Positions 1 to 7,737 of a stretch of 7,737 nucleotides of DNA are shown here, one piece after another; position 1 is the stretch's first letter; every line of letters starts with the position of its first letter. This stretch comes from Naegleria gruberi (lineage: Eukaryota). The translations under genes and the position numbers were made by a program. Under the pieces are notes generated by a model. It was not told the origin of the DNA. It did not search any database and saw only the letters and a program-made list of their open reading frames with translations. Location of the stretch: assembly GCA_000004985.1 (NCBI GenBank), contig GG739112.1. One strand, 5' to 3'.

Positions 1-943
1 TTGTGGTGTGACAGTTCTAAATGTTTACTAAATAGCATCAAATGTCGATATGGTTGATACATTGTAAAAAAGTATGAAACCCCTCTTACGCATAGCGGGA
101 TTATAATTGAAGATTATTTATTCCCCTCTTTTTACAATTATGAAAGATTTTATGGTGACACTGAAAATTTGTTATCCTCAAGAGAAATCACATTATGCCG
201 CGTTTTGAGATAACAATTTTAAGCAAAAAGGAAATTGTAGTTTACTCCCATAGCTTCAAAACACATGAAGAAGGCAAACCATTTTCGTTAAATTCTAAGC
301 CCACCATTCTCTCAAAACCTGGCAGACATAATAAAACCTTAGAGAAGGTTAATGTTTCAGTAATTTCCCATCAAATTCAATAAATAAAAATTTAACGCGA
401 GTTTAAACTTCTAGGGGTGATGGAAAGTACACTTTCCTAATGCTAGATTAAGTTCTGCATGAATAAATTGGACGGTTGTTGATGGTCATTCAATTGAGAA
501 TTAAGAGGAGGAAATAATGTTCAGTAATGTTTCTCAGATGGAAATGCAAGAATACTTGTTGAGAAACATTGCTGATTTCGATGTTTCAATAACAGAGTAG
601 CCTTAACAATACTATTCATCTCAATAATAGAAGACACATATTTCTGAGGCCAAATGATACAGGATACTTGTTGTGGACTATTCTAATTAGCTCTACTCCT
701 CAATACATGAAATGCATGCATTGTGTTAAAATGTTTTTCACTTAGATAGGTTAGCCAGTCAAGTGTTGGGAATGATAAACATTGATGTTTTTGAACCAGA
801 TGTAGTGGACTATCATGGTATTCTTATCCATTCACTTCAATACAGAGCCAATATTTCACGTCACTTATCAACATCACCTCCAAAAATTATCGATCAAAAA
901 AATAACCATCACATCTCTGCCTTCATCAAGTACACACTTTTTT

Positions 944-983
944 AACAACAATAACAACAGTATCAAACAAAAGAAAGTAAATA
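944..983 (+). promoter_or_regulatory. A/CAA-rich putative 5' leader immediately upstream of the ATG at 984 (aacaacaataacaacagtatcaaacaaaagaaagtaaata), preceded by a T6 run.
   Basis: About 70% A, almost no G or T, and CAA/AAC triplet-like repeats. Such A-rich unstructured leaders are typical upstream of efficiently translated genes in AT-rich eukaryotes. No transcription start evidence is available. Confidence 0.25.
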
Positions 984-1125
984 ATGAATCAAATAGAAGC
1001 AGGGTTAGAACCAAGTACCTCATCAAATCTTGGACCAAAAGGAATTGAACGTTTAGAAACAGATTTTACCGAAATTAAACGAATCACTGATCCATCACAA
1101 ATTCGTGAAAGAAGAGAAAAAGAAG
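984..1125 (+). CDS. 5' end (47 codons) of a CDS that continues into the masked region. Product unknown. N-terminal peptide MNQIEAGLEPSTSSNLGPKGIERLETDFTEIKRITDPSQIRERREKE.
   Basis: ATG at 984 is the first ATG after an in-frame TAA at 978-980. The start context is A-rich (gtaaataATGa, A at -3). There are 47 consecutive sense codons in AT-rich DNA where stops are frequent (chance roughly 0.03-0.1). Codon usage resembles the other two coding segments (AGA/CGT Arg, GGA Gly). The frame runs into the N-run with no stop, so the true end is not visible. Confidence 0.5.
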
Positions 1126-4100
1126 NNNNNNNNNNNNNNNNNNNNNNNNNNNNNNNNNNNNNNNNNNNNNNNNNNNNNNNNNNNNNNNNNNNNNNNNNNN
1201 NNNNNNNNNNNNNNNNNNNNNNNNNNNNNNNNNNNNNNNNNNNNNNNNNNNNNNNNNNNNNNNNNNNNNNNNNNNNNNNNNNNNNNNNNNNNNNNNNNNN
1301 NNNNNNNNNNNNNNNNNNNNNNNNNNNNNNNNNNNNNNNNNNNNNNNNNNNNNNNNNNNNNNNNNNNNNNNNNNNNNNNNNNNNNNNNNNNNNNNNNNNN
1401 NNNNNNNNNNNNNNNNNNNNNNNNNNNNNNNNNNNNNNNNNNNNNNNNNNNNNNNNNNNNNNNNNNNNNNNNNNNNNNNNNNNNNNNNNNNNNNNNNNNN
1501 NNNNNNNNNNNNNNNNNNNNNNNNNNNNNNNNNNNNNNNNNNNNNNNNNNNNNNNNNNNNNNNNNNNNNNNNNNNNNNNNNNNNNNNNNNNNNNNNNNNN
1601 NNNNNNNNNNNNNNNNNNNNNNNNNNNNNNNNNNNNNNNNNNNNNNNNNNNNNNNNNNNNNNNNNNNNNNNNNNNNNNNNNNNNNNNNNNNNNNNNNNNN
1701 NNNNNNNNNNNNNNNNNNNNNNNNNNNNNNNNNNNNNNNNNNNNNNNNNNNNNNNNNNNNNNNNNNNNNNNNNNNNNNNNNNNNNNNNNNNNNNNNNNNN
1801 NNNNNNNNNNNNNNNNNNNNNNNNNNNNNNNNNNNNNNNNNNNNNNNNNNNNNNNNNNNNNNNNNNNNNNNNNNNNNNNNNNNNNNNNNNNNNNNNNNNN
1901 NNNNNNNNNNNNNNNNNNNNNNNNNNNNNNNNNNNNNNNNNNNNNNNNNNNNNNNNNNNNNNNNNNNNNNNNNNNNNNNNNNNNNNNNNNNNNNNNNNNN
2001 NNNNNNNNNNNNNNNNNNNNNNNNNNNNNNNNNNNNNNNNNNNNNNNNNNNNNNNNNNNNNNNNNNNNNNNNNNNNNNNNNNNNNNNNNNNNNNNNNNNN
2101 NNNNNNNNNNNNNNNNNNNNNNNNNNNNNNNNNNNNNNNNNNNNNNNNNNNNNNNNNNNNNNNNNNNNNNNNNNNNNNNNNNNNNNNNNNNNNNNNNNNN
2201 NNNNNNNNNNNNNNNNNNNNNNNNNNNNNNNNNNNNNNNNNNNNNNNNNNNNNNNNNNNNNNNNNNNNNNNNNNNNNNNNNNNNNNNNNNNNNNNNNNNN
2301 NNNNNNNNNNNNNNNNNNNNNNNNNNNNNNNNNNNNNNNNNNNNNNNNNNNNNNNNNNNNNNNNNNNNNNNNNNNNNNNNNNNNNNNNNNNNNNNNNNNN
2401 NNNNNNNNNNNNNNNNNNNNNNNNNNNNNNNNNNNNNNNNNNNNNNNNNNNNNNNNNNNNNNNNNNNNNNNNNNNNNNNNNNNNNNNNNNNNNNNNNNNN
2501 NNNNNNNNNNNNNNNNNNNNNNNNNNNNNNNNNNNNNNNNNNNNNNNNNNNNNNNNNNNNNNNNNNNNNNNNNNNNNNNNNNNNNNNNNNNNNNNNNNNN
2601 NNNNNNNNNNNNNNNNNNNNNNNNNNNNNNNNNNNNNNNNNNNNNNNNNNNNNNNNNNNNNNNNNNNNNNNNNNNNNNNNNNNNNNNNNNNNNNNNNNNN
2701 NNNNNNNNNNNNNNNNNNNNNNNNNNNNNNNNNNNNNNNNNNNNNNNNNNNNNNNNNNNNNNNNNNNNNNNNNNNNNNNNNNNNNNNNNNNNNNNNNNNN
2801 NNNNNNNNNNNNNNNNNNNNNNNNNNNNNNNNNNNNNNNNNNNNNNNNNNNNNNNNNNNNNNNNNNNNNNNNNNNNNNNNNNNNNNNNNNNNNNNNNNNN
2901 NNNNNNNNNNNNNNNNNNNNNNNNNNNNNNNNNNNNNNNNNNNNNNNNNNNNNNNNNNNNNNNNNNNNNNNNNNNNNNNNNNNNNNNNNNNNNNNNNNNN
3001 NNNNNNNNNNNNNNNNNNNNNNNNNNNNNNNNNNNNNNNNNNNNNNNNNNNNNNNNNNNNNNNNNNNNNNNNNNNNNNNNNNNNNNNNNNNNNNNNNNNN
3101 NNNNNNNNNNNNNNNNNNNNNNNNNNNNNNNNNNNNNNNNNNNNNNNNNNNNNNNNNNNNNNNNNNNNNNNNNNNNNNNNNNNNNNNNNNNNNNNNNNNN
3201 NNNNNNNNNNNNNNNNNNNNNNNNNNNNNNNNNNNNNNNNNNNNNNNNNNNNNNNNNNNNNNNNNNNNNNNNNNNNNNNNNNNNNNNNNNNNNNNNNNNN
3301 NNNNNNNNNNNNNNNNNNNNNNNNNNNNNNNNNNNNNNNNNNNNNNNNNNNNNNNNNNNNNNNNNNNNNNNNNNNNNNNNNNNNNNNNNNNNNNNNNNNN
3401 NNNNNNNNNNNNNNNNNNNNNNNNNNNNNNNNNNNNNNNNNNNNNNNNNNNNNNNNNNNNNNNNNNNNNNNNNNNNNNNNNNNNNNNNNNNNNNNNNNNN
3501 NNNNNNNNNNNNNNNNNNNNNNNNNNNNNNNNNNNNNNNNNNNNNNNNNNNNNNNNNNNNNNNNNNNNNNNNNNNNNNNNNNNNNNNNNNNNNNNNNNNN
3601 NNNNNNNNNNNNNNNNNNNNNNNNNNNNNNNNNNNNNNNNNNNNNNNNNNNNNNNNNNNNNNNNNNNNNNNNNNNNNNNNNNNNNNNNNNNNNNNNNNNN
3701 NNNNNNNNNNNNNNNNNNNNNNNNNNNNNNNNNNNNNNNNNNNNNNNNNNNNNNNNNNNNNNNNNNNNNNNNNNNNNNNNNNNNNNNNNNNNNNNNNNNN
3801 NNNNNNNNNNNNNNNNNNNNNNNNNNNNNNNNNNNNNNNNNNNNNNNNNNNNNNNNNNNNNNNNNNNNNNNNNNNNNNNNNNNNNNNNNNNNNNNNNNNN
3901 NNNNNNNNNNNNNNNNNNNNNNNNNNNNNNNNNNNNNNNNNNNNNNNNNNNNNNNNNNNNNNNNNNNNNNNNNNNNNNNNNNNNNNNNNNNNNNNNNNNN
4001 NNNNNNNNNNNNNNNNNNNNNNNNNNNNNNNNNNNNNNNNNNNNNNNNNNNNNNNNNNNNNNNNNNNNNNNNNNNNNNNNNNNNNNNNNNNNNNNNNNNN

Positions 4101-6622
4101 NNNNNNNNNNNNNNNNNNNNNNNNNNNNNNNNNNNNNNNNNNNNNNNNNNNNNNNNNNNNNNNNNNNNNNNNNNNNNNNNNNNNNNNNNNNNNNNNNNNN
4201 NNNNNNNNNNNNNNNNNNNNNNNNNNNNNNNNNNNNNNNNNNNNNNNNNNNNNNNNNNNNNNNNNNNNNNNNNNNNNNNNNNNNNNNNNNNNNNNNNNNN
4301 NNNNNNNNNNNNNNNNNNNNNNNNNNNNNNNNNNNNNNNNNNNNNNNNNNNNNNNNNNNNNNNNNNNNNNNNNNNNNNNNNNNNNNNNNNNNNNNNNNNN
4401 NNNNNNNNNNNNNNNNNNNNNNNNNNNNNNNNNNNNNNNNNNNNNNNNNNNNNNNNNNNNNNNNNNNNNNNNNNNNNNNNNNNNNNNNNNNNNNNNNNNN
4501 NNNNNNNNNNNNNNNNNNNNNNNNNNNNNNNNNNNNNNNNNNNNNNNNNNNNNNNNNNNNNNNNNNNNNNNNNNNNNNNNNNNNNNNNNNNNNNNNNNNN
4601 NNNNNNNNNNNNNNNNNNNNNNNNNNNNNNNNNNNNNNNNNNNNNNNNNNNNNNNNNNNNNNNNNNNNNNNNNNNNNNNNNNNNNNNNNNNNNNNNNNNN
4701 NNNNNNNNNNNNNNNNNNNNNNNNNNNNNNNNNNNNNNNNNNNNNNNNNNNNNNNNNNNNNNNNNNNNNNNNNNNNNNNNNNNNNNNNNNNNNNNNNNNN
4801 NNNNNNNNNNNNNNNNNNNNNNNNNNNNNNNNNNNNNNNNNNNNNNNNNNNNNNNNNNNNNNNNNNNNNNNNNNNNNNNNNNNNNNNNNNNNNNNNNNNN
4901 NNNNNNNNNNNNNNNNNNNNNNNNNNNNNNNNNNNNNNNNNNNNNNNNNNNNNNNNNNNNNNNNNNNNNNNNNNNNNNNNNNNNNNNNNNNNNNNNNNNN
5001 NNNNNNNNNNNNNNNNNNNNNNNNNNNNNNNNNNNNNNNNNNNNNNNNNNNNNNNNNNNNNNNNNNNNNNNNNNNNNNNNNNNNNNNNNNNNNNNNNNNN
5101 NNNNNNNNNNNNNNNNNNNNNNNNNNNNNNNNNNNNNNNNNNNNNNNNNNNNNNNNNNNNNNNNNNNNNNNNNNNNNNNNNNNNNNNNNNNNNNNNNNNN
5201 NNNNNNNNNNNNNNNNNNNNNNNNNNNNNNNNNNNNNNNNNNNNNNNNNNNNNNNNNNNNNNNNNNNNNNNNNNNNNNNNNNNNNNNNNNNNNNNNNNNN
5301 NNNNNNNNNNNNNNNNNNNNNNNNNNNNNNNNNNNNNNNNNNNNNNNNNNNNNNNNNNNNNNNNNNNNNNNNNNNNNNNNNNNNNNNNNNNNNNNNNNNN
5401 NNNNNNNNNNNNNNNNNNNNNNNNNNNNNNNNNNNNNNNNNNNNNNNNNNNNNNNNNNNNNNNNNNNNNNNNNNNNNNNNNNNNNNNNNNNNNNNNNNNN
5501 NNNNNNNNNNNNNNNNNNNNNNNNNNNNNNNNNNNNNNNNNNNNNNNNNNNNNNNNNNNNNNNNNNNNNNNNNNNNNNNNNNNNNNNNNNNNNNNNNNNN
5601 NNNNNNNNNNNNNNNNNNNNNNNNNNNNNNNNNNNNNNNNNNNNNNNNNNNNNNNNNNNNNNNNNNNNNNNNNNNNNNNNNNNNNNNNNNNNNNNNNNNN
5701 NNNNNNNNNNNNNNNNNNNNNNNNNNNNNNNNNNNNNNNNNNNNNNNNNNNNNNNNNNNNNNNNNNNNNNNNNNNNNNNNNNNNNNNNNNNNNNNNNNNN
5801 NNNNNNNNNNNNNNNNNNNNNNNNNNNNNNNNNNNNNNNNNNNNNNNNNNNNNNNNNNNNNNNNNNNNNNNNNNNNNNNNNNNNNNNNNNNNNNNNNNNN
5901 NNNNNNNNNNNNNNNNNNNNNNNNNNNNNNNNNNNNNNNNNNNNNNNNNNNNNNNNNNNNNNNNNNNNNNNNNNNNNNNNNNNNNNNNNNNNNNNNNNNN
6001 NNNNNNNNNNNNNNNNNNNNNNNNNNNNNNNNNNNNNNNNNNNNNNNNNNNNNNNNNNNNNNNNNNNNNNNNNNNNNNNNNNNNNNNNNNNNNNNNNNNN
6101 NNNNNNNNNNNNNNNNNNNNNNNNNNNNNNNNNNNNNNNNNNNNNNNNNNNNNNNNNNNNNNNNNNNNNNNNNNNNNNNNNNNNNNNNNNNNNNNNNNNN
6201 NNNNNNNNNNNNNNNNNNNNNNNNNNNNNNNNNNNNNNNNNNNNNNNNNNNNNNNNNNNNNNNNNNNNNNNNNNNNNNNNNNNNNNNNNNNNNNNNNNNN
6301 NNNNNNNNNNNNNNNNNNNNNNNNNNNNNNNNNNNNNNNNNNNNNNNNNNNNNNNNNNNNNNNNNNNNNNNNNNNNNNNNNNNNNNNNNNNNNNNNNNNN
6401 NNNNNNNNNNNNNNNNNNNNNNNNNNNNNNNNNNNNNNNNNNNNNNNNNNNNNNNNNNNNNNNNNNNNNNNNNNNNNNNNNNNNNNNNNNNNNNNNNNNN
6501 NNNNNNNNNNNNNNNNNNNNNNNNNNNNNNNNNNNNNNNNNNNNNNNNNNNNNNNNNNNNNNNNNNNNNNNNNNNNNNNNNNNNNNNNNNNNNNNNNNNN
6601 NNNNNNNNNNNNNNNNNNNNNN
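1126..6622. other. Uninterrupted run of 5,497 N. This is either hard-masked sequence or a sized assembly gap. No biological content is readable.
   Basis: Direct count: the last real base before the run is g at 1125 and the first real base after it is a at 6623. The length 5,497 is not a round number. Confidence 0.99.
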
Positions 6623-6623
6623 A

Positions 6624-7001
6624 AGTTATGAGATTGACTCTTTTGCTGAAATCAGAAGAGTTGTTCAATCATACATTGATGCTAGACAAGAATACTGTCG
6701 TGACATTTTGGGTGTAAAGACAGGTAAGAGACATGCTACTGGTGTTACTTTATATGCTGATAGAGCTCTCGCTAAGGGTGATTCTCTTGGTTTCTTACGT
6801 GCTAGATTACTTGCCATTCGTGACCAAGACAGAATTGAAAGAACAATAACAAATCTTCACTCTGGTAACACTCTCACTAAGTCTCAAAAGGCTAAACGAA
6901 GTGAAAGATCAGGAAGACGTAGATACGAAGGTCAAAAGCTTGATAATACTATGAAAGTTTTCATGTGGGTAAAGAAGTACAGAAACAGAATTTTGAAATA
7001 A
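6624..7001 (+). CDS. 3' end (125 codons plus TAA) of a protein-coding gene emerging from the masked region. Product unrecognised. It ends in a basic tail ...TKSQKAKRSERSGRRRYEGQKLDNTMKVFMWVKKYRNRILK*.
   Basis: There are 125 sense codons, the stop is TAA at 6999-7001, and the other two + frames close quickly. Codon usage is strongly biased (GGT Gly, CGT/AGA Arg, GCT Ala, AAG over AAA, CTT/CTC Leu), which is typical of a translated and probably well-expressed gene. An AATAAA hexamer lies 9 nt after the stop. It is in the same frame as the 984 ORF if the N-run length is exact. Confidence 0.75.
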   Translation, partial: SYEIDSFAEIRRVVQSYIDARQEYCRDILGVKTGKRHATGVTLYADRALAKGDSLGFLRARLLAIRDQDRIERTITNLHSGNTLTKSQKAKRSERSGRRRYEGQKLDNTMKVFMWVKKYRNRILK

Positions 7002-7009
7002 ATTATATC

Positions 7010-7015
7010 AATAAA
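7010..7015 (+). terminator. Putative polyadenylation hexamer AATAAA, 9 nt downstream of the + gene stop codon.
   Basis: The canonical hexamer is seen directly in the sequence. The stop itself forms TAAA (gaaaTAAAtt). The region is AT-rich, so a chance occurrence is plausible. Confidence 0.3.
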
Positions 7016-7034
7016 TATTGGTTATTAAAATAAT

Positions 7035-7074
7035 ATTTCACAATATTCCATTATTGGAAAATGAATTGTGAAAT
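7035..7074. repeat. Perfect 10-bp inverted repeat ATTTCACAAT / ATTGTGAAAT with a 20-nt spacer. The spacer contains a nested 5-bp inverted repeat TTCCA-ttat-TGGAA. It is a stem-loop candidate in the shared 3' region of the convergent genes.
   Basis: Read directly: the arms are 7035-7044 and 7065-7074 and are exact reverse complements, and the inner arms are 7046-7050 and 7055-7059. It lies 34-73 nt downstream of the + gene stop and about 140-180 nt downstream of the OSTC stop. Confidence 0.5.
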
Positions 7075-7212
7075 TAAGGTGTACGTCAAAACCTTAGTTT
7101 TCCATTTTGTTTTAAGATAATTTAATTCGTCTTAAATAACAAAATAATACATTATAGAATTAATGTTAGTAAACTCAATAAAGATTTATAATAATTTATA
7201 GTAACATCATGA

Positions 7213-7674
7213 TTATTGAAGATAATTGGTGATCTTCATCTTCAAGAACATGATCAAAGTGTTATAAGCAATAATGATGAGGAAAATTCCCAATCCGAGG
7301 AAAATGTATCGGGAGCGAGTTGTTGTTGATGGATCAGCTGCCCAATTCAATGAAATAAATCCAAGTCCTCCTATTGTGAATAAGAAACCAGCACTGAATC
7401 CTTCAATCACGTATTGAGCGTTTAATCTATATTCAAGAACTGCTACTGGTCTAACTCTTCCGTCAGCATCTCTTCTACTACCAATAGATGGAGGTTCATT
7501 GATCATATCGTAAACAATACCGGAACAAATAACAAAGTATGAAGCAAGAAGAAGAACAAAGACGAGCATCTTTGGAAGACCCTTTTCAAAGATACTTGGT
7601 AATTTAAGTTTGATATCAGGTGCTCTGAGAGCAGAAGTGTAGATGGCTTTAAAGATTGGGAAGAGTGGATCCAT
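7213..7674 (-). CDS. OSTC: Oligosaccharyltransferase complex subunit OSTC (DC2), 153 aa, complete and intronless.
   Basis: It aligns over its full length, at about 45% identity, to my recollection of human OSTC/DC2 (149 aa). Conserved blocks are LKLK near the N-terminus, SYF, IYD.I.EPPS.GS, RPVA.L.YR.N.QY..EG and FLFT.GGLGFI, followed by a C-terminal TM segment ...F..MK...YL. It has the three-TM hydropathy layout. The ATG at 7674-7672 is the first after an in-frame TAA two codons upstream, in the context aaaaaATGg. The stop is TAA at 7215-7213. Confidence 0.9.
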   Translation of the reverse strand: MDPLFPIFKAIYTSALRAPDIKLKLPSIFEKGLPKMLVFVLLLASYFVICSGIVYDMINEPPSIGSRRDADGRVRPVAVLEYRLNAQYVIEGFSAGFLFTIGGLGFISLNWAADPSTTTRSRYIFLGLGIFLIIIAYNTLIMFLKMKITNYLQ

Positions 7675-7737
7675 TTTTTAAAAATTTTATTCTTTTTTAA
7701 TAAATATTAATTTATTATTCAAGTGGTGATGATCTAC

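What the first reader, a model, noticed from the sequence alone, without database searches (positions are those of the whole stretch)
1126..6622. 71% of the window is masked, and every long ORF across it is an artefact
The three ORFs in the track that span 1.1-6.7 kb (984-7001 +, 1105-6717 +, 1095-6668 -) exist only because N translates to X and cannot encode a stop. All three frames on both strands pass through the run. The only real information is at the edges: a + strand coding frame enters the run from the left and a + strand coding frame exits it on the right. Anything novel in this window (a mobile element inserted into a gene, a repeat family, a gene cluster) would sit here and cannot be assessed. 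A non-round length of 5,497 nt suggests deliberate masking of real sequence or a sized gap rather than an arbitrary 100-N spacer.
Basis: seen in the sequence. Interest (0 to 1): 0.55.

Follow-up and report, generated by a model that had tools for sequence, protein, structure and literature searches.

The report
Assembly gap in small Naegleria scaffold
The 5,497 Ns are an ordinary sized gap in a tiny, redundant scaffold of the Naegleria gruberi draft genome; it hides four unremarkable genes that are fully assembled elsewhere, and its only real consequence is one bogus public gene model spliced across the gap.

Summary
In detail: N fills 1126-6622 (5,497 nt, 71% of the window), and the three long ORFs exist only because N translates to X. 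The window is a whole 7,737-bp Naegleria gruberi scaffold made of two contigs of about 1.1 kb joined by a sized gap.

The two coding frames at the edges belong to different genes. The left edge is the first 47 codons of a 703-aa copine (NAEGRDRAFT_72771). The right edge is the last 125 codons of a 454-aa heterolobosean hypothetical protein (NAEGRDRAFT_81296).

Both genes, a 436-aa gene between them and the downstream OST3/OST6-family gene are annotated with consecutive accession numbers on a 312-kb scaffold of the same assembly. Two near-identical metagenome contigs restore about 4.2 kb of the 5.5 kb and add a fourth, minus-strand coiled-coil gene.

N. fowleri and N. lovaniensis have the same five-gene order over 6.15-6.17 kb, against 6.02 kb here. 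The gap size is therefore about right, with no room for a hidden element.

The public protein XP_002668354.1 (153 aa) is a chimera of copine codons 1-40 and the last 113 codons of the 454-aa gene, joined by a fake 5,556-nt GT-AG intron across the gap. This is an artefact of low interest.

The parts
1..1125 (.). Left contig of the scaffold (real sequence, 33% GC). Bases 1-983 are non-coding DNA upstream of the copine gene.
   Evidence: Window 621-1125 aligns to metagenome contig L004 1-514.
984..1125 (+). First 47 codons (plus 1 nt) of the 703-aa copine gene NAEGRDRAFT_72771 (P0010, EFC39309.1).
   Evidence: One search gives the translation; 100% identical to P0010 residues 1-47. P0010 matches Pfam Copine at 61.4 bits (cut-off 27) and C2 at 22.6 bits (cut-off 22).
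1126..6622 (.). Sized scaffold gap of 5,497 N. Inferred content in window-equivalent coordinates: rest of copine to ~3095 (+); coiled-coil gene X from ~3153 to ~4000-4090 (-); 436-aa gene NAEGRDRAFT_72772 at ~4123-5433 (+); first 329 codons of the 454-aa gene from ~5637 (+).
   Evidence: for the run. L004 covers about 1126-3687; the reverse complement of L001 covers about 5015-6622. for the proteins on the 312-kb contig. for synteny and span.
6623..7001 (+). Last 125 codons plus stop of the 454-aa hypothetical protein NAEGRDRAFT_81296 (P0007, EFC39311.1).
   Evidence: 100% identical to the last 125 residues of P0007; full-length alignment with 452-463-aa orthologues.
984..1104 (+). Exon 1 of the artefactual public gene model NAEGRDRAFT_76732 (P0001, XP_002668354.1, 153 aa).
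   Evidence: This is the only exon pair that reproduces P0001.
1105..6660 (+). Fake 5,556-nt GT..AG 'intron' of that model. It is the gap plus 21 nt on the left and 38 nt on the right.
6661..7001 (+). Exon 2 of the artefactual gene model P0001.
7213..7674 (-). Complete 153-aa OST3/OST6-family gene (OSTC/DC2-like from my own knowledge), NAEGRDRAFT_76733. The same protein sequence is also annotated on the 312-kb scaffold (EFC39382.1).
   Evidence: PF04756, 44.6 bits against a cut-off of 27; two accessions, two contigs.
6623..7737 (.). Right contig of the scaffold (real sequence, 1,115 nt).
   Evidence: 98.7% identical to the reverse complement of L001; all differences are in non-coding DNA.

Best explanation
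The window is an entire small scaffold (7,737 bp) of the Naegleria gruberi draft genome. It consists of two contigs, each about as long as a Sanger read (1,125 and 1,115 bp), joined by mate-pair information. The distance between them is written as a sized gap of 5,497 N.

The scaffold is a redundant copy of a locus that is fully assembled and annotated on a 312,004-bp scaffold of the same assembly. It may be allelic or simply leftover reads. The gap corresponds to four ordinary genes:
- the remaining 656 codons of a copine;
- a coiled-coil gene of roughly 260-310 aa on the opposite strand;
- a 436-aa predicted protein;
- the first 329 codons of a 454-aa conserved heterolobosean hypothetical protein.

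Every ORF crossing the run is a translation artefact. The deposited 153-aa protein XP_002668354.1 is an annotation artefact that treats the gap as an intron and fuses two unrelated genes.

Shown: the identity of both edges, the chimeric model, the DNA of about 4.2 kb of the interval in a near-identical strain, and the synteny. Inferred: the mate-pair origin of the gap, the allelic or redundant nature of the scaffold, and the exact content of the about 1.3 kb not recovered as DNA.
For: -: the only database protein containing the right-edge peptide at first search is P0001, N. gruberi XP_002668354.1, whose contig is 7,737 bp long, the length of this window.
- P0001 is reproduced only by 984-1104 joined to 6661-7001, with GT at 1105 and AG at 6659-6660. 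The annotators therefore saw the Ns.
- the left-edge 47 aa are 100% identical to P0010 (703 aa, Copine), the L001 upstream ORF is 98% identical to P0009 (436 aa), and the 454-aa ORF is 100% identical to P0007. All three are on one 312,004-bp N. gruberi contig.
- the accessions are consecutive: EFC39309, EFC39310 and EFC39311, and UniProt D2VUS8, D2VUS9, D2VUT0, followed by the OST3/OST6-family protein at D2VUT1.
- metagenome contigs L004 and L001 match the left and right edges (coding parts 100%, right flank 98.7%). They extend 2,562 and 1,608 nt into the interval, showing intact, intronless, separate genes with AT-rich spacers.
- N. fowleri and N. lovaniensis have the same order: copine(+), X(-), ~430 aa(+), ~460 aa(+), OST3/OST6-family gene(-). 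From copine ATG to the stop of the ~460-aa gene is 6,167 and 6,149 nt, against 6,018 nt here.
- the missing N-terminus of X (85-135 aa, so 255-405 nt) plus a 28-56-nt head-to-head spacer fits the 434 nt left over in the layout.
- none of the recovered proteins has a transposase, integrase or other mobile-element domain above threshold.
Against: - The DNA of the 312-kb scaffold could not be fetched. Redundancy with it rests on 100% identical protein segments and accession order, not on a DNA alignment.
- About 1.3 kb of the interval was not recovered as DNA. Of that, 894 nt are known as protein, assuming the 436-aa gene is intronless as in N. fowleri and N. lovaniensis.
- The metagenome strain is not identical to this scaffold. 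The copine promoter is only about 86% alignable, with indels and a 42-bp inversion, and there are 3 amino-acid differences in the 436-aa gene relative to the big scaffold.
- The agreement of gap length with expected content is better than one might expect from a mate-pair estimate. An exact replacement of real bases by N would also produce that agreement.
- The assembly method (Sanger paired ends, sized gaps) is from my own knowledge. The genome paper was not available.
Confidence: 0.93

Rival explanations
1. The run is real sequence that was deliberately hard-masked, either as a repeat or mobile element or by the data provider or pipeline, rather than an assembly gap.
For: The length is not round, and it agrees to within about 100 nt with the gene content expected from relatives. 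Exact replacement would give that agreement automatically. The tool documentation mentions that a few stretches in one collection are masked as N.
Against: The deposited gene model P0001 splices GT..AG across exactly this interval. A predictor would not skip four intact genes that it annotated normally on the 312-kb scaffold. The equivalent sequence is made of single-copy ordinary genes, not repeats. No mobile-element domains were found, and each protein cluster has one N. gruberi member apart from the duplicated OST3/OST6-family protein. The flanking contigs are about as long as a Sanger read (1,125 and 1,115 bp).
Confidence: 0.04
2. The two edges are the ends of a single very long gene (the 2,005-codon frame 984-7001), or of one gene with large introns.
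For: The ATG at 984 and the TAA at 6999 are in the same frame given 5,497 Ns. The public model P0001 joins them.
Against: The left edge is the start of a 703-aa copine with its own stop, seen intact and intronless in L004 373-2484. The right edge is the end of a 454-aa protein with its own ATG preceded by stops and an AT-rich spacer. Its orthologues of 452-463 aa align from residue 1. Two further genes lie in between, one of them on the opposite strand. Sharing a frame has a 1-in-3 chance.
Confidence: 0.01
3. The small scaffold is a structurally divergent second haplotype or a segmental duplication, and the gap hides haplotype-specific content such as an insertion, deletion or rearrangement. 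That content would have prevented it from merging with the 312-kb scaffold.
For: The scaffold was assembled separately although its coding parts are identical to those of the big scaffold. Its copine promoter differs from a near-identical strain by several indels and a 42-bp inversion, so structural polymorphism does exist at this locus.
Against: The estimated span (6,018 nt) is slightly shorter than in N. fowleri and N. lovaniensis (6,167 and 6,149 nt). It is just filled by the four genes, leaving no room for a sizeable insertion. A gap size is only an estimate, so this argument is not absolute. No direct evidence of any extra element was found.
Confidence: 0.1

Closest known systems
Sized scaffold gap in a paired-end (Sanger-era) draft assembly
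   Same: An uninterrupted run of N of non-round length lies between two short contigs. The total scaffold length is in the range of a plasmid-clone insert. A gene predictor has bridged it with a fake intron.
   Different: Nothing is different in kind. The only notable point is that the estimated length turns out to be accurate to within about 100 nt when judged by gene content and by synteny with two sister species.
Redundant or allelic mini-scaffolds in heterozygous draft genomes
   Same: The OST3/OST6-family protein is annotated with the same sequence twice, on this scaffold and on a 312-kb scaffold. The edge fragments are 100% identical to proteins of the big scaffold.
   Different: Whether this copy is a second allele, a recent duplication or just unmerged reads could not be decided, because the big scaffold's DNA was not retrievable.
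Chimeric gene models spanning assembly gaps
   Same: XP_002668354.1 / D2W5P1 joins codons 1-40 of a copine to the last 113 codons of an unrelated protein through a GT-AG 'intron' made of Ns.
   Different: The real intron sizes seen at this locus are tiny: the orthologous genes are intronless or have introns of about 60 nt. A 5.5-kb intron is therefore implausible on its face.

Membership tests
Assembly (scaffold) gap | Uninterrupted run of N with real, unrelated-looking contigs on both sides | tested here: met
   a single run at 1126-6622, flanked by 1,125 and 1,115 nt of A/C/G/T only.
Assembly (scaffold) gap | The Ns are present in the primary public record, not added later | tested here: met
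   Indirect but strong. The deposited model P0001 (EFC35610.1) is reproduced only by splicing 1104 to 6661 across the run. The record itself could not be opened.
Assembly (scaffold) gap | The two flanks are truly linked at about the stated distance in the genome | tested here: met
   The flanks carry the first gene (copine) and the last two genes (454-aa, OST3/OST6-family) of a block of consecutive genes on the 312-kb scaffold. The span of 6,018 nt compares with 6,149-6,167 nt in N. lovaniensis and N. fowleri.
Hard-masked repeat or mobile element | The hidden sequence is repetitive or encodes transposition or integration functions | tested here: not met
   The recovered 4.2 kb and the three big-scaffold proteins show Copine/C2 domains, a coiled coil and no-Pfam proteins only. 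The 703-, 436- and 454-aa proteins each had one 90%-identity cluster with one contig in N. gruberi. About 430 nt of DNA remain unseen.
Copine family (left-edge gene) | C2 domain(s) followed by a C-terminal copine (vWA-like) domain | tested here: met
   on P0010: Copine PF07002 at 61.4 bits (cut-off 27), residues 512-695; C2 PF00168 at 22.6 bits (cut-off 22), residues 318-405. Only residues 1-47 lie in the window.
OST3/OST6 family (downstream gene 7213-7674) | Match to PF04756 above the gathering score | tested here: met
   44.6 bits against a cut-off of 27, covering only the C-terminal transmembrane part of the profile (174-292 of 294). The resemblance to the short OSTC/DC2 subunit is from memory and was not tested.

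The most novel reading that the evidence does not exclude
The mini-scaffold may be a structurally divergent second haplotype of the copine to OST3/OST6-family gene locus in N. gruberi NEG-M. The gap would then conceal haplotype-specific rearrangement beyond the promoter indels and the 42-bp inversion seen at 775-816.
Probability: 0.08. Interest if true: 0.15.

Novelty: not a real feature. Interest (0 to 1): 0.04.

Why it matters
Biologically it does not matter: the masked interval hides nothing unusual. There are three small practical points.

1. RefSeq XP_002668354.1 / UniProt D2W5P1 (NAEGRDRAFT_76732) is a chimeric artefact and should not be used as a protein family member. XP_002668355.1 is a redundant copy of XP_002672126.1.

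2. A conserved gene (X, coiled coil) lying between the copine and the 436-aa gene appears to be unannotated in N. gruberi.

3. For genome scans, windows dominated by N in tiny scaffolds can be resolved quickly. Searching the edge peptides against the same assembly's proteome is enough.

Tried and rejected
- Pfam and PDB sequence searches of the bare edge peptides gave nothing.
- The first word-indexed protein search with the 125-aa right edge returned only the chimeric model P0001 and missed the true 454-aa parent, although it is 100% identical. The parent appeared only when the full-length ORF from L001 was used.
- Exact look-up of P0001 and P0009 for encoding contigs found nothing. The N. 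gruberi NCBI scaffolds themselves were never returned by the look-up of encoding contigs, so no DNA-level comparison with the 312-kb scaffold was possible.
- The idea that the left edge might be the start of the RSN1_7TM channel gene that sits upstream in Willaertia was tested and rejected. It is a copine, and the Willaertia copine lies on the other side of the OST3/OST6-family gene.
- Rfam and tRNA scans of the window, L001 and L004 found nothing.
- The N. gruberi genome paper could not be read. The pangenome paper PMC9928731 gave only summary statistics for the NEG-M assembly.
- No structure prediction was run, because it would not bear on the finding.
Full report
**Observation.** The window contains one run of N at 1126-6622. 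It is exactly 5,497 bases, 71.05% of the 7,737-base window, with no other ambiguity codes and no soft-masking. Real coding sequence abuts the run on both sides. On the left, 984-1125 encodes MNQIEAGLEPS...RERREKE (47 codons). On the right, 6624-7001 encodes SYEIDSFAEIRR...KKYRNRILK* (125 codons). With 5,497 Ns the ATG at 984 and the TAA at 6999 share a frame. This has a 1-in-3 chance and turns out to be meaningless.

**Origin of the window.** The ORF at 7213-7674 (-) is an OST3/OST6-family protein (PF04756, 44.6 bits against a cut-off of 27), so the DNA is eukaryotic. The right-edge peptide hit a single protein, P0001, a 153-aa 'predicted protein [Naegleria gruberi]' whose contig length is 7,737. 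Its accessions are EFC35610.1 / XP_002668354.1 / D2W5P1, NAEGRDRAFT_76732. The window is therefore a complete small scaffold of the N. gruberi draft genome.

**The public gene model is spliced across the gap.** P0001 reads MNQIEAGL...DPSQI|LVQSYIDARQ.... An exhaustive search of exon boundaries gives one solution: exon 984-1104 and exon 6661-7001, with GT at 1105-1106 and AG at 6659-6660. That makes a 5,556-nt 'intron' consisting of the gap plus 21 and 38 real bases. This shows that the Ns were in the assembly when it was annotated. The run is therefore an original scaffold gap, not later masking. The flanking contigs are 1,125 and 1,115 bp. From my own knowledge of Sanger-era JGI assemblies, this is what a few paired clone-end reads give, with the gap length estimated from the insert size. 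I could not read the genome paper to confirm the method.

**What the edges really are.** The OST3/OST6-family protein is annotated with the same sequence twice in N. gruberi, here and on a 312,004-bp contig (EFC39382.1, D2VUT1). Looking up where that protein is encoded returned a metagenome contig, L001 (ENA ERZ929261, 2,827 bp, no N). Its reverse complement matches window 6623-7737 at 98.7% and continues 1,608 nt further left.

In L001 the right-edge frame is a 454-aa ORF with its own ATG. A 203-nt AT-rich, stop-filled spacer precedes it, and the 3' end of another + strand ORF lies before that. A full HMMER scan with P0001 found relatives of 454, 452 and 662 aa that match only through their C-termini. 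No relative of the N-terminal 40 residues was found. The 454- and 452-aa relatives and the 463-aa N. fowleri orthologue are full-length orthologues of the L001 ORF; the 662-aa relative is longer, with large extra N-terminal and internal segments.

One search with the three pieces concatenated then returned three N. gruberi proteins, all on the 312,004-bp contig:
- **P0010**: 703 aa, 100% identical to the left-edge 47 aa. It has Copine at 61.4 bits and C2 at 22.6 bits.
- **P0009**: 436 aa, 98% identical to the L001 upstream ORF.
- **P0007**: 454 aa, 100% identical to the L001 ORF.

Their accessions are EFC39309, EFC39310 and EFC39311, and D2VUS8, D2VUS9 and D2VUT0, followed directly by the OST3/OST6-family protein at D2VUT1. 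I verified that window 984-1124 equals P0010[1-47] and that window 6624-6998 equals the last 125 residues of P0007. P0001 is therefore a chimera of two unrelated genes.

**Reconstructing the gap.** A second contig from the same metagenome, L004 (3,076 bp), carries the whole intronless copine gene, identical to P0010, at 373-2484. Just downstream, a minus-strand ORF at 2542-3075 (177 aa, cut by the contig end, here called X) is coiled-coil-like by its weak Pfam hits. L004 1-514 aligns to window 621-1125, and the coding part is 100% identical. In window-equivalent coordinates the layout is:

| Element | Strand | Approximate position |
|---|---|---|
| Copine | + | 984-3095 |
| Gene X | - | from about 3153, with the start not seen |
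| 436-aa gene | + | about 4123-5433 |
| 454-aa gene | + | 5637-7001 |
| OST3/OST6-family gene | - | 7213-7674 |

L004 and L001 together restore about 4,170 of the 5,497 hidden bases. A further 894 nt are known as protein (P0009 residues 1-298). That leaves about 434 nt for the missing N-terminus of X and a head-to-head spacer.

**Synteny test.** X has orthologues of 297 aa (N. lovaniensis), 322 aa (N. fowleri), 261 aa (metagenome) and 249 aa (Willaertia). The N. gruberi fragment starts at their residue 86-136, so 255-405 nt are missing.

In N. fowleri (L006) and N. lovaniensis (L005) the gene order is exactly copine, X on the opposite strand, a 426/431-aa gene, a 463/468-aa gene, the OST3/OST6-family gene on the opposite strand, then ribosomal S10. 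Nothing else lies in between. The X to 426/431 spacers are 28 and 56 nt, and every N. gruberi protein matches the corresponding gene. The distance from the copine ATG to the stop of the ~460-aa gene is 6,167 and 6,149 nt, against 6,018 nt in the window. In Willaertia (L002) the 338-aa gene, the 452-aa gene and the OST3/OST6-family gene keep this arrangement, while the copine lies elsewhere.

The 5,497-N estimate is therefore about right, within roughly 100 nt, and there is no room for a hidden insertion. No recovered protein has a mobile-element domain, and there are no Rfam families or tRNAs in the real sequence.

**Verdict.** The 'sized gap' alternative is the correct reading of the non-round length. 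The hope that something novel hides here is not supported.

What remains inferred:
- the mate-pair origin of the gap;
- whether the mini-scaffold is an allele or just unmerged reads, because the DNA of the 312-kb scaffold was not retrievable;
- about 430 nt never seen as sequence.

The differences between the window and the metagenome contigs are all non-coding. They are small indels near 7120, changes at 7712-7726 and 837-973, larger indels at 722-760, and a 42-bp inversion at 775-816. This is ordinary strain or allele variation. Interest is very low. The useful outputs are curation notes: a chimeric RefSeq/UniProt entry, a duplicated entry, and a probably unannotated conserved gene.

Noticed in passing
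window 775-816 (against L004 165-206): A 42-bp segment in the copine promoter is present in inverted orientation, 100% identical as reverse complement, in the near-identical metagenome contig L004. In the window it is bounded by the short inverted repeat ATGAT...ATCAT. Next to it are a 20-nt and a 9-nt indel (about window 722-760). This looks like a micro-inversion polymorphism between strains or alleles.
   Followed up: partly
L004 2542-3075 (-); window-equivalent about 3153 to about 4050, inside the gap: A coiled-coil gene (X) conserved in N. fowleri (322 aa), N. lovaniensis (C9374_006386, 297 aa) and Willaertia magna (ABK040_009159, 249 aa) lies between the copine and the 436-aa gene. No annotated N. 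gruberi protein was returned for it. The consecutive UniProt numbers D2VUS8 and D2VUS9 leave no slot for it, so it is probably unannotated in the N. gruberi reference. One relative (P0011) carries a precomputed ATG14/Vps38 Pfam hit (PF10186); the fragment itself scores only E=0.043.
   Followed up: partly
window 984-1104 plus 6661-7001: RefSeq XP_002668354.1 / GenBank EFC35610.1 / UniProt D2W5P1 (NAEGRDRAFT_76732, 153 aa) is a chimeric gene model. It fuses copine codons 1-40 to the last 113 codons of NAEGRDRAFT_81296 across the gap. It is also carried in EukProt.
   Followed up: yes
window 7213-7674 (-): The OST3/OST6-family protein is annotated with the same sequence twice in N. gruberi (EFC35611.1 here, EFC39382.1 on the 312-kb scaffold). 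This is redundancy in the reference proteome caused by this mini-scaffold.
   Followed up: yes
window 1-983: Nearly 1 kb upstream of the copine ATG has no ORF over 77 aa, no Pfam-detectable gene, no Rfam family and no tRNA. That is long for an intergenic region compared with the 28-220-nt spacers elsewhere at this locus. Only 621-983 could be compared with another sequence (L004).
   Followed up: partly
(tool behaviour): The word-indexed protein search with the 125-aa right-edge peptide missed P0007, although P0007 contains that peptide at 100% identity. It found P0007 only when the full 454-aa sequence was part of the query. Negative results from that tool with short queries should be treated with caution.
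   Followed up: no
L001 2409-2825 (-) against P0009: The metagenome strain differs from the N. gruberi reference by 3 amino acids in the last 138 residues of the 436-aa protein (L to I, M to I, P to Q). The copine and the 454-aa proteins are 100% identical. The 436-aa gene seems to be the fastest-evolving of the block: 46-49% identity to N. fowleri and N. lovaniensis, against 59-85% for its neighbours.
   Followed up: no
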